Shown here: piece after piece, positions 12,001 to 15,000 of the stretch
Layout of the letters: every line of letters starts with the position of its first letter
How positions within the stretch are numbered: the stretch's first letter is position 1
NCBI RefSeq assembly: GCF_055900595.2
Contig: NZ_CM148325.1
Direction: 5' to 3' (one strand)
Length of the DNA stretch: 64,000 nt
Position numbers: made by a program

Positions 12001-15000
12001 AATTGTTGGGGCATTCAGGGAGACGGAGGCCAGCCCTACCGGGATGCCTTGCGCCCGAAGATCTGCCAGCAAAGGCCGAATTCCCGGCAGAACAGCGTTA
12101 ACCGTCAGTTCGCGCAGTGAGTGGACGTAGAGCAGATTTTTGCGATACGCCAGTTGCGCCCGCTCTTGCACGTTAAAGTCGCCCTCTTTGCCCCCGTGTT
12201 GCAGAATGCGTCGCAGGGACTCATCGCGGCTGATCCCTTTTAACGTCTCGTTAAATTGCACATCGATGCCGATGCCGATTTCGGCAGCAATCTGCTGCCA
12301 TGCCTGGAAGTGCAGATGTGCGGTGTCGGTGATCACGCCATCCAGATCGAAAATTACCCCTTGTAGTTTCATTCATCCTCTTGATGCGTGGTAGCGGTCC
12401 CATTGAAGGGCAAAATAAAATCACCCAAACAGAAAACAGACTCTTCAGTCACGGAAATAAGCTGACCGTTCAACCGCAGTGAAACGGGCGCAGAAGTTCG
12501 AATCGCAATACGCTGCGCGTCGAGAGTGACCTGTAATTCGCAGCCCTGCCAGAACAGAGGGAAAGACAACTGTTGCCACTGCTCAGGTAACGCCGGATTG
12601 AGAAGTAATTCGCCGTCGCGCACGCTGACTCCGGCAAAACCCTGAATCGCGCCCAGCCAGATAGCGCCAGTTGCGGCAGCGTGGATACCGTCATCACAGC
12701 TATGCGGATCAGCACCGAGATCGATTTCACTCCCCTCGCGCCAGAACGGGTAACTCTGCGCAAGCAAGCCACAACGCGCGGCAACAATGCCGTGGATCGC
12801 TTTACTCAATGACGAGTCGTGAATGGTGCGCGGTTCATAAAATTGCAGATTGGCGAGACAAGAGGCCGCTGAAAATTGTTCCGGTAGCATGTAATTGAGC
12901 ATCACTACATCGGCCTGCTTGAGGATCTGCATCTCGTTCACTTCTGCGCGTGAATAATCCAGCAGAATGGTTTGCTTCCCGGCCGCCGCTTTGTATTTCG
13001 CCAGATCTATCGCCGGTTTCGCCATAAACGAATCATCCTGCGGCAAAACGCCGTCGGGCTGAATTTCTGGCATCCACAGCTCTTTGAGGAACATGTCGGC
13101 ACGATGAATAAACGCGTCGTCGCTACAGCAAAACTGGCGAGCAATATTCAGCGCCTGTTGGACGTTGTAGCAGGCCATATAACTGGTGTATGCGTTATTA
13201 TTAACGTGTTCGGTATATTCGTCTGGCCCAATAACATCATGAATTTCCAGGCGGTCGTTAACCCTTACCGCACGGCTAATCCAGAACTTTGCGGTCTCCA
13301 GCAGTAGCGCCATGCCTTCGTGAGCGATGAAGCTTTCATCTCCCGTTACCTGCCAGTATTGAATAACCGCCCAGGCGATATCGGCAACCAGATGATGTTC
13401 TGCCTGCGCTGAGGCCACTTTTTGCCGCAGCCCGGTACGAATGTTAATGGCGGCAAATTCCGGCGTTTCTTCTTCGCCGCTACGTGCGCTCTCCCACGGA
13501 AACAGCGCGCCCTGCCAGCCATTGCGTCGCGCTTTCTCCTGCGCCCCTGGTAAGTTGTGCCAGCGATAGCGCAGCAAACTCCGGGCAATCGTCGGTTCGC
13601 TAAACAGATGGAACGGCAGCATGAACACTTCCGTATCCCAGAAAACATGGCCTTTGTAGCCTTCCCCGGTTAAGGCTTTTGCCGCAATGCTGCTACGCTC
13701 GTCGTGGGCGGGCGTCATAATACGCAAATGATAAAGCGCATAGTCTAACGCCCGCTGATCGTGCGTATCGCAACTCTTTACCGTGATACGACGTTTCTGC
13801 CACCATTGCTGCCAGTTTTCTGTCGATGCTGCAAGAAGTTGGTCATAACTCTGTTGTGTAGACATTTCGAGCTGGCGAAGCGACCCACTGCCCCACTCGT
13901 CTAAAGCGGCTTGTCGGTCGTCCCGCCAGTCAATCCACACCCGCTTTTGCAGGGTCAGTGTTTCACCTGTGCGAAGTTGCGTGCTGGTATGTTGCAGCAA
14001 ACGGCGCTCTTTTGCGGTATAGCACTGCTGAACGTCACCATCCGCCTGACAGTGACAACTGATGGCCACATCACTGCGCCCATCCTGGGTGGTGTAGATC
14101 CCCTGCATCAAATGCTGACCAAACACCCGCACCTGGGTTTCGTCAAGATGCTGGCGACCGTGGTTGGTTTGCGTGGCGTTAATGCCTGTTGAGATCAGCA
14201 CTGATGCCTCGGCGTCCAGCGGGGTAATACTGATTTCCAGCGCGATCAACGGCAGTTGATCTGTCGAAATAAATATCCTCCGGCATAGCCGGAGGTTTTT
14301 CAAATGCGCCTGTAAGGCTCTGTTACCAGCCGCGCCCTAACAGGCGCATACGATCTGACATTTGCATTCAACTTCGTTACTTACGGCCCGTAAACGGGCT
14401 GCCCGGATATGGAATCGATAACTGCTCCCCCATTTTATCCTCTTCAAGCTGGTGCTTTATGTAGTCCTGTATCTTCGCCGTGTTCTTACCCACCGTATCG
14501 ACATAGTACCCTCGGCACCAGAACTCCCTGTTTCTGTATTTGAATTTCAAATCCCCAAACTGCTCGTAAAGCATCAGACTGCTTTTCCCTTTCAGATATC
14601 CCATAAAGCCGGATACGCTCATTTTGGGTGGGATTTCCACAAGCATATGGATATGATCTGCGCAGCACTCTGCTTCCAGAATCCGTACGCTTTTCCACTC
14701 ACACAGCTTTCTCAAAATACTGCCTATCGCCCTACGCTTCTCTCCGTAAAACGCCAGTCTTCGGTATTTCGGCGCAAAAACTATGTGATATTTACAGTTC
14801 CAGCGGGTGTGCGCTAAGCTCTTTTCGTCCCCCATTGGGACCCCCTTTTGATTTCTTGTTTGACACTTGCAGTTGCCAGACCGCAAGGTGTTTTAACAAA
14901 TCAAAAGGGGTTTTAATAACTGGCTCAAAGCTGAAAGCTTTCCGGAACCCCCAGCCTAGCTGGGGGTTTTCTGTGCACAACAAAGCGACGACTTGCAAGG

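What the first reader, a model, noticed from the sequence alone, without database searches (positions are those of the whole stretch)
14280..14987. IS200 inserted in-frame into ycjT, splitting the kojibiose phosphorylase gene
An IS200 transposase with characteristic end hairpins interrupts ycjT. The two ycjT fragments share a reading frame and the gap is ~708 bp; removing it restores a 755-codon gene, the length I recall for intact YcjT. This is a recent, precise insertion with no other damage. It also separates ycjV-ycjU and the ycjT C-terminal part from the operon promoter, so polar effects are possible.
Basis: partly seen in the sequence, partly recalled or inferred. Interest (0 to 1): 0.55.

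Follow-up and report, generated by a model that had tools for sequence, protein, structure and literature searches.

The report
IS200 insertion splitting the ycjT gene
A standard 711-bp IS200 mobile element has recently jumped into the sugar-metabolism gene ycjT of this E. coli strain and broken it; this is an ordinary insertion of a well-known element.

Summary
A complete IS200 lies in ycjT on the minus strand, in the same direction as the gene. Comparison with the empty site of a 99.95%-identical relative (E. coli Z0117EC0005) sets the insert at window 14270-14980. That is 711 bp, not 708, with a 2-nt AA/TT ambiguity at the junction. Removing it restores a 2268-nt, 755-codon ycjT with one missense difference.

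The element is 711/711 identical to IS200 copies at other loci in five other genomes. It encodes an intact 152-aa Y1/HUH transposase and has the left-end hairpin, the 5'UTR structure (Rfam STnc490) and the right-end hairpins.

- "In-frame" has no consequence, because the ycjT frame stops 17 codons into the element.
- The operon has a second lesion, a +1 frameshift in a G7 run of ycjQ. This may be a sequencing error.
- A second YcjW operator-like site lies just before pgmB, so polarity on downstream genes is not certain.

None of 5,426 complete E. coli genomes has this insertion. One has an independent IS200C 75 nt away.

Side result: 37 of 40 other IS200 left-end junctions abut a terminator-like hairpin followed by a T run. 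The ycjT site has such a hairpin too. Low interest.

The parts
14270..14980 (-). Complete IS200 element, 711 bp. The boundaries carry a 2-nt ambiguity (14268-14978 to 14270-14980). The left end (LE) is at the high coordinate.
   Evidence: Empty-site comparison with L001. 711/711 identity to copies in five other genomes. Only one copy in the window.
14377..14835 (-). tnpA, the 152-aa Y1/HUH transposase, with HUH at H61-I-H63 and the catalytic Tyr at Y125. It is intact and identical to WP_000502112.1 as encoded in L003.
   Evidence: NF033573 at 144 bits. Pfam Y1_Tnp at 9e-37. Aligns to solved Y1 transposases 2EC2, 2A6M and 2XM3. Identity to the L003 protein and motif positions. The Y125F catalytic-dead mutant is listed in PMC4513863.
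14946..14968 (-). Left-end subterminal hairpin AACCCCCAGC-TAG-GCTGGGGGTT. In the literature it is the bidirectional terminator that blocks incoming transcription, and by family analogy it is the TnpA-binding hairpin.
   Evidence: Folds at -12.6 kcal/mol. Corresponds to Rfam STnc490 model positions 1-22. PMC4513863 describes the terminator at nt 12-34.
14845..14968 (-). tnpA 5'UTR region matching Rfam RF01405 (STnc490). It includes the stem-loop at 14845-14908 that covers the Shine-Dalgarno sequence. The antisense sRNA art200 is described as transcribed from the opposite strand of this region.
   Evidence: 146.4 bits against a gathering score of 56, E 1.7e-31, full length 1-124. PMC4513863 for art200 and the SD-sequestering stem.
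14277..14349 (-). Right-end structures: a long imperfect hairpin at 14304-14349 and the terminal hairpin CCTCCGGC-TAT-GCCGGAGG at 14277-14295. The terminal hairpin has the same shape as the left-end hairpin (8-bp stem, 3-nt loop). ATATTTA(TT) follows it.
   Evidence: Folds at -24.1 kcal/mol, z -6.2. Terminator-like on both strands.
14981..15347 (-). 5' fragment of ycjT (CDS nt 1-367). The open frame runs on into the element to a TGA at 14925-14927, giving 123 native residues plus a 17-aa tail.
12369..14269 (-). 3' fragment of ycjT (CDS nt 368-2268). It holds the rest of the N-terminal domain, the catalytic domain and the C-terminal domain, and has no native start codon.
   Evidence: Pfam GH65 N 8-237, central 298-660, C 672-728 on the rejoined protein.
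14979..15020 (-). Insertion target in ycjT: a 37-nt imperfect hairpin (14984-15020) followed by TTGTT, directly 5' of the IS200 left end.
   Evidence: -11.3 kcal/mol, z -4.5. Same fold in the empty site of L001, but only -5.8 in the mainstream ycjT allele.
18071..18077 (-). G7 run (C7 on the gene strand) in ycjQ, against G6 in the relative. The +1 frameshift leaves a 298-aa ORF instead of 350 aa.
12387..12403 (-). 17-mer ATGGGACCGCTACCACG at the end of ycjT, 15-31 nt before the pgmB start. It is identical to the 17-mer at 23025-23041 in front of ycjM and is a candidate second YcjW operator.
   Evidence: PMC6599011 reports YcjW ChIP peaks before ycjM and between ycjT and ycjU.

Best explanation
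This is a recent insertion of an intact, standard IS200 (IS200/IS605 family, tnpA only) into codon 123 of ycjT, the GH65 gene of the ycjMNOPQRSTUV-ompG sugar operon.

Shown:
- The element, its exact size and its position.
- Its identity to other IS200 copies.
- The intact transposase with HUH and Tyr125.
- The left-end and right-end hairpins.
- The clean junction.

Inferred from the family mechanism (PMC5027513): the Y1 transposase excised the tnpA-sense strand of a donor copy as a single-stranded circle. It then pasted that circle 3' of a T-rich target on single-stranded DNA. The tnpA-sense strand here is the G-rich strand, which means the lagging-strand template, as expected for this family.

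The site was probably chosen because ycjT of this allele folds there into a terminator-like hairpin followed by TTGTT. That is the same kind of site that 37 of 40 other IS200 left ends abut.

Consequences (inferred):
- YcjT is reduced to 123 native residues plus 17 foreign ones and is inactive.
- Transcripts from the ycjM promoter meet the left-end terminator hairpin, an early stop codon (loss of translational coupling) and the right-end hairpin. Expression of the ycjT 3' part should therefore fall.
- Expression of pgmB, ycjV and ompG should fall too, unless the second YcjW site marks an internal promoter.
For: - Junctions and 711-bp size against the empty site.
- Restored 755-codon ycjT.
- NF033573 at 144 bits and Pfam Y1_Tnp at 9e-37.
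- Alignment to solved Y1 transposases.
- Rfam STnc490 at 146 bits.
- Hairpins.
- 711/711 identity to copies at five other loci and genomes.
- The window is colinear with Z0117EC0005. Only 23 SNPs, this insert and one 1-bp indel separate them over 63.3 kb.
- No complete E. coli genome among 5,426 has the insertion. Relatives with the empty site carry 16-18 IS200 copies.
- Negative GC skew on the window + strand in 7 of 8 bins.
- Target hairpin at -11.3 kcal/mol, z -4.5. 37 of 40 other junctions are at or below -8 kcal/mol, against 3.6% of random TT-ending 42-mers.
- Terminator role of the left-end hairpin and the SD-sequestering stem come from PMC4513863.
- The rule that the LE inserts 3' of a short target, and the lagging-strand bias, come from PMC5027513.
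Against: - Nothing contradicts the identification.
- No reads are available, so a mis-assembly across a repeat cannot be formally excluded.
- The 2-nt TT at both junctions cannot be assigned to element, target or a 2-bp duplication.
- Polarity is not measured, and the second YcjW site before pgmB could lessen it.
- The enrichment of terminator-adjacent copies could partly reflect survival of harmless insertions rather than targeting.
- The left-end hairpin lacks a good U run in the ycjT direction, so its termination efficiency here rests on published work in Salmonella.
Confidence: 0.93

Rival explanations
1. Assembly artefact: a repeat copy of IS200 was placed in ycjT by the assembler, and the real genome has an intact ycjT.
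For: IS200 is multicopy in the closest relatives, at 16-18 places per genome. Repeats of about 700 bp do break or confuse short-read assemblies; many IS200 loci sit at contig ends. The nearby G7 run in ycjQ may be a sequencing error.
Against: Both junctions are exact to the base. The copy is flanked by TT on both sides like all 11 E. coli IS200 copies aligned. The left end abuts a hairpin plus T-rich tail, as 37 of 40 other copies do. A random mis-join would not reproduce that target signature.
Confidence: 0.03
2. The insertion is old, and the empty sites in relatives arose by precise excision, which this family can perform.
For: IS200/IS605 elements excise precisely and reseal the donor (PMC5027513), so an empty site does not by itself prove that a site was never occupied.
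Against: The site is empty in every one of the 5,426 complete genomes, across both ycjT alleles. The element shows 0 differences from copies elsewhere. ycjT has accumulated only one private missense change. IS200 mobility is described as very low (PMC4513863).
Confidence: 0.03
3. The location next to a hairpin is not due to targeting. IS200 inserts at any T-rich site, and selection has kept the copies that sit harmlessly behind terminators. On this view the ycjT hairpin is a coincidence, and the copy survives because the ycj operon is dispensable.
For: Insertions just after terminators are expected to be neutral. The operon already has a possible second lesion in ycjQ. K-12 does not grow on kojibiose (PMC6599011), so the locus may be under weak selection.
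Against: The left end lies 0-8 nt from the foot of the stem in the 37 junctions with a strong hairpin. Only about 1% of random TT-ending 42-mers fold as well as the intragenic ycjT site. The two independent ycjT insertions each sit where their own allele folds best: -11.3 vs -5.8 and -7.6 vs -2.8 kcal/mol.
Confidence: 0.25

Closest known systems
IS200 of E. coli and Salmonella (IS200/IS605 family, IS200 group)
   Same: Single tnpA gene and size of about 707-711 bp. Left-end terminator hairpin, SD-sequestering 5'UTR stem-loop (Rfam STnc490, 146 bits) and right-end hairpin. 711/711 nt identity to copies annotated as IS200/IS605 family transposase in E. coli Z0117EC0005, N3, ST2747, SB0258h1 and ETEC1738.
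   Different: Nothing in the element itself. Only the insertion locus is new: it was not seen in 5,426 complete E. coli genomes. Salmonella IS200 is described as 707 bp (PMC4513863). The 711 bp here includes the ambiguous TT.
IS200C insertion in ycjT of E. coli MB64 (NZ_CP073929.1)
   Same: Same gene and same orientation, 75 nt further into the CDS (after nt 442, against nt 367 here). Also flanked by TT on both sides and preceded by a hairpin.
   Different: A different IS200 subtype, with 27 mismatches in 711 nt. It sits in a different ycjT allele (90.0% nt identity) at a different site, so it is an independent event. Its hairpin is weaker, at -7.6 kcal/mol.
IS608 / ISDra2 (mechanistic paradigms of the family)
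   Same: Homologous Y1/HUH transposase (E 3e-19 to 2A6M). Subterminal hairpins and no terminal inverted repeats. The left end sits next to a short specific target. The active strand is on the lagging-strand template (PMC5027513).
   Different: IS608 and ISDra2 also carry tnpB and use TTAC or TTGAT targets. This element has tnpA only. Its left ends follow a T-rich tail behind a hairpin.

Membership tests
IS200 (IS200/IS605 family) | Encodes a Y1 (HUH, single tyrosine) transposase of the IS200 type | tested here: met
   NF033573 equivalog at 144.4 bits against a cut-off of 55. Pfam Y1_Tnp at 9.1e-37, full length. H61-I-H63 and Y125 are present. Aligns to 2EC2, 2A6M and 2XM3.
IS200 (IS200/IS605 family) | No terminal inverted repeats; subterminal hairpins at both ends | tested here: met
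   Left-end hairpin at 14946-14968 and right-end hairpin at 14277-14295. Both have 8-bp stems and 3-nt loops of similar sequence.
IS200 (IS200/IS605 family) | About 700 bp, tnpA only, with a structured 5'UTR (terminator plus SD-sequestering stem) | tested here: met
   711 bp. Full-length Rfam RF01405 match at 146 bits.
IS200 (IS200/IS605 family) | Inserts without target duplication, with the left end 3' of a short specific target | tested here: inconclusive
   TT flanks both ends in all 12 E. coli copies aligned (the window, MB64 and ten others). All 29 further left-end flanks from other species also end in TT. Sequence alone cannot say whether TT is target plus element end or a 2-bp duplication.
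IS200 (IS200/IS605 family) | Near-identity to named IS200 copies | tested here: met
   0 mismatches in 711 nt to five copies and 1-3 mismatches to four more. Matches were found in 2,687 of 5,426 E. coli genomes.
IS200 (IS200/IS605 family) | Transposition activity of this copy | not testable with these tools
   Only indirect evidence: the insertion is polymorphic between genomes that differ by 23 SNPs in 63 kb.
ycjT (GH65, kojibiose phosphorylase of the ycj operon) | GH65 N-terminal, central catalytic and C-terminal domains in a protein of about 755 aa | tested here: met
   On the rejoined protein: PF03636 at 8-237, PF03632 at 298-660 (1.6e-145) and PF03633 at 672-728. 755 aa. Best solved relative is kojibiose phosphorylase 3WIQ at 4e-112.
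ycjT (GH65, kojibiose phosphorylase of the ycj operon) | Position between ycjS and pgmB (ycjU) in ycjMNOPQRSTUV-ompG | tested here: met
   Colinear with the annotated operon of Z0117EC0005 and MB64.
ycjT (GH65, kojibiose phosphorylase of the ycj operon) | Kojibiose phosphorylase activity | not testable with these tools
   The activity was shown for K-12 YcjT (Mukherjee 2018, cited in PMC6599011). This allele is 93.1% aa identical to the mainstream allele, and RefSeq names it only 'glycoside hydrolase family 65 protein'. NCBIfam hits are below their cut-offs.

The most novel reading that the evidence does not exclude
IS200 may choose its targets by structure. On single-stranded DNA it would integrate its left end a few bases after a terminator-like hairpin and T-rich tail. 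Rare gene-breaking insertions such as this one would then happen where a coding sequence mimics a terminator. On this reading the ycjT hit, and its exact position, were set by an allele-specific hairpin in the gene. The 5' part of ycjT would be a minor hotspot, with two independent hits 75 nt apart. A 2025-26 preprint (10.1101/2025.07.22.666184) already reports terminator-like sequences enriched upstream of IS200/IS605 elements. The new part would be only base-level targeting and the coding-sequence mimicry.
Probability: 0.55. Interest if true: 0.35.

Novelty: already known. Interest (0 to 1): 0.15.

Why it matters
It matters little beyond annotation. ycjT should be called a pseudogene split by IS200, and the ycj operon of this strain is probably non-functional for YcjT and perhaps for YcjQ. 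IS200 is often described as almost immobile. This is a clean natural example of a recent jump in a lineage with 16-18 copies, so the junction could serve as a strain marker. The target-site pattern (a hairpin plus T run directly before the left end in 37 of 40 junctions, and in the ycjT site itself) is a useful rule for predicting where IS200 lands. It also helps explain why IS200 so rarely breaks genes.

Tried and rejected
1. My first fold of the ycjT target used a truncated 36-nt flank and showed no hairpin. That led me briefly to call the site atypical. Refolding with the same 42-nt flank used for all copies showed a -11.3 kcal/mol hairpin, so the 'atypical site' idea was dropped.
2. Consensus sigma-70 scans found no promoter inside the element, before pgmB or before ycjM. 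The scan also misses the region where the ycjM promoter must lie, so it says nothing about an internal or outward promoter.
3. MB64 also has a frameshifted ycjQ. However, it is at a different place, and that assembly has several frameshifted genes nearby (puuE, puuA). It is not evidence for recurrent ycjQ decay.
4. The weak Rfam hit Ysr202 (33.7 bits against a gathering score of 315) is only the right-end hairpin and was rejected.
5. NCBIfam does not name the rejoined YcjT, because its hits are below the cut-offs. Identification rests on Pfam, synteny and RefSeq annotation of relatives.
6. The copy number in this genome cannot be counted from a 64-kb window. There is one copy in the window, and relatives have 16-18.
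7. The large protein database searches, structure prediction and the metagenome scan were not used, because nothing in the question needed them.

Full report
**What is there.** The region was read directly and its ORFs were listed. On the minus strand there are three ORFs:
- a 140-aa ORF (14925-15347) that starts like YcjT;
- a 152-aa ORF (14377-14835, from its ATG);
- a 644-aa ORF (12369-14303) that continues YcjT.

A megablast of 14200-15060 against 5,426 complete E. coli genomes found the central ~720 bases in 2,687 genomes. The hits lie at many loci and are annotated 'IS200/IS605 family transposase'. There are 1 to 35 places per genome, with a median of 2.

**Exact junctions.** A wider query (13700-15500) found genomes that match both flanks at 99.9% but lack the middle. 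I fetched one of them, E. coli Z0117EC0005 (L001), which has an intact 2268-nt ycjT.
- The left flank matches exactly up to window 14269, and the right flank from 14979.
- The window has 711 extra bases.
- Two bases (AA on the + strand) are shared by both alignments, so the insert is 14270-14980 give or take 2 nt.
- Removing it gives a 755-codon ORF with no internal stop. It differs from the relative's gene by 2 nt and one residue (C503 here; G in both L001 and MB64).
Since 711 is a multiple of three, the fragments do share a frame.

**The element.**
- The 152-aa protein matches NCBIfam NF033573 (144 bits, cut-off 55) and Pfam Y1_Tnp (9e-37) over their full lengths.
- It aligns with solved Y1 transposases, including IS608 TnpA. 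The HUH motif (H61-I-H63) and Tyr125 are present. Tyr125 is the residue mutated in the catalytically dead Y125F control of PMC4513863.
- Rfam RF01405 (STnc490) matches 14845-14968 on the tnpA strand at 146 bits (gathering score 56). [quoted passage not shown]
- PMC4513863 describes the hairpin as a bidirectional rho-independent terminator that protects against impinging transcription. It describes art200 (formerly STnc490) as the antisense RNA of this region.
- The right end folds into a long hairpin (14304-14349) and a terminal hairpin (14277-14295). The terminal hairpin has the same shape as the left-end hairpin.
- The 711 bases are identical to copies at five different loci in five other genomes, and 1-3 mismatches from four more.
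- There is no second copy in the window.

**How recent.** The whole 64-kb window is colinear with Z0117EC0005. Only 23 SNPs, this insert and one 1-bp indel separate the two over 63.3 kb. Only one of the 5,426 genomes has an IS200 anywhere in the 1.8-kb query, and it is not this insertion. That genome, MB64, has an IS200C in ycjT in the same orientation, after CDS nt 442 rather than nt 367. Its element differs at 27 of 711 positions, and its ycjT allele is only 90.0% identical, so the event is independent. The eight 99.9%-identical empty-site genomes listed have 16-18 IS200 places each. The window's lineage is therefore rich in IS200.

**Consequences for the gene and operon.**
- tnpA runs in the same direction as ycjT.
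- The ycjT frame continues 17 codons into the element and ends at a TGA (14925-14927). Many more stops follow, so the shared frame has no consequence.
- The product keeps 123 of 755 residues. It ends inside the GH65 N-terminal domain (8-237) and lacks the catalytic domain (298-660).
- Transcripts from upstream meet the left-end hairpin, the early stop and the right-end hairpin, which scores as terminator-like in this direction. Polarity on the ycjT 3' part, pgmB, ycjV and ompG is therefore plausible. This step is an inference, not a measurement.

Two qualifications follow.
- First, a 17-mer (ATGGGACCGCTACCACG) occurs identically in front of ycjM (23025-23041) and 15-31 nt before the pgmB start (12387-12403). 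PMC6599011 reports YcjW ChIP-seq peaks at exactly these two places. The downstream genes may thus have a separate control point.
- Second, the operon has another lesion upstream. ycjQ has a G7 run (18071-18077) where the relative has G6, which shifts the frame. It could be a sequencing error.

**Why this site.** I aligned the ends of ten other E. coli copies. I also collected 32 loci from other Enterobacterales by an exact search with the first 20 bases of the left end.
- Every copy has TT before GTGCAC at the left end. In the 12 E. coli copies aligned at both ends, TT also follows ATATTTA at the right end.
- In 37 of 40 independent junctions, the 42 nt before the left end fold at -8 kcal/mol or better as single-stranded DNA (median -11.2). 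The stem ends 0-8 nt before the junction and a T-rich run lies between them. In other words, the left end abuts an intrinsic-terminator-like structure.
- Only 3.6% of 2,000 random TT-ending 42-mers from the window reach -8 kcal/mol.
- The ycjT site fits this pattern, with a 37-nt hairpin (14984-15020) at -11.3 kcal/mol (z -4.5) followed by TTGTT.
- The hairpin is specific to this ycjT allele: -5.8 kcal/mol in the mainstream allele. MB64's site is likewise better folded in MB64's allele than in this one (-7.6 vs -2.8).
- An earlier fold of a truncated flank had wrongly suggested there was no hairpin.
- The window's + strand has negative GC skew in 7 of 8 bins. The tnpA-sense strand therefore lies on the lagging-strand template, as reported for this family (PMC5027513).
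- A preprint (10.1101/2025.07.22.666184) already reports that terminator-like sequences are most over-represented upstream of IS200/IS605 elements. This pattern is at most a refinement of that result.

**Comparison and verdict.** The element passes every sequence-level test for IS200. The one open point is whether the flanking TT is target, element end or a 2-bp duplication. The host gene passes the domain, length and synteny tests for ycjT. Its enzymatic activity cannot be tested here, and its allele is 93.1% identical to the mainstream protein. This is a known element doing a known thing at a locus not seen in the complete genomes searched. Interest is low.

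Noticed in passing
window 18071-18077 (ycjQ, minus strand): A G7 run where the 99.95%-identical relative has G6. It puts a +1 frameshift in ycjQ (298-aa ORF instead of 350 aa), upstream of ycjT in the same operon. It could be a real slippage mutation or a homopolymer sequencing error. The mainstream allele has GACGCGGAG here, with no run.
   Followed up: partly
window 12387-12403 and 23025-23041 (minus strand): An identical 17-mer, ATGGGACCGCTACCACG, lies before ycjM and inside the last codons of ycjT just before pgmB. It is an imperfect palindrome around a central CG. 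The two positions match the two YcjW ChIP-seq peaks reported in PMC6599011.
   Followed up: partly
left-end junctions of IS200 in L002-L012 and L017-L048: In 37 of 40 independent IS200 copies, from E. coli and at least 15 other Enterobacterales, the left end sits 0-8 nt after a strong hairpin with a T-rich run. In several E. coli loci this is the terminator of the upstream co-oriented gene (pgm, phoR, sohB, aroA, dsbB, rplT).
   Followed up: yes
L002 / L015 (E. coli MB64, NZ_CP073929.1), ycjT: An independent IS200C insertion in ycjT, 75 nt downstream of the window's site and in the same orientation, in a different ycjT allele. The 5' part of ycjT may be a minor hotspot, or the locus may simply tolerate insertions.
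   Followed up: partly
window ~4270-30590, most marked in ycjT (12369-15347): The tyrR-ycj-psp-puu segment is only about 94-94.6% identical to E. coli MB64, and ycjT itself about 90% (85-95% in 300-nt bins). The rest of the window is about 97.3-97.7% identical. The search listed window-like ycjT-ycjS flanks at 97-99.9% in a group of genomes, followed by genomes at about 89.7%. This suggests that two old alleles of the ycj region coexist in E. coli, the window-like one apparently the rarer.
   Followed up: partly
window 2134-4230 (+), within a 2.2-kb segment (2028-4269) between tpx and tyrR: A single 698-aa ORF (681 aa from the Met at 2185) with no Pfam, NCBIfam or PADLOC match. The segment is absent from MB64. 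In the close relative Z0117EC0005, a SNP at window 3406 makes a stop and the ORF is annotated as two hypothetical proteins.
   Followed up: partly
window 41286-49172: A 7.9-kb segment absent from MB64, which has ycjD between sapF and fabI. In the relative's annotation the same interval holds a TetR regulator, an RND efflux adaptor, permease and outer-membrane subunit, and an MFS transporter.
   Followed up: no
window 13130 (ycjT codon 503): A private missense change, Gly to Cys, in the catalytic domain of the already interrupted ycjT. Both the close relative and the mainstream allele have Gly. This is compatible with relaxed selection after inactivation, but it is a single change.
   Followed up: no
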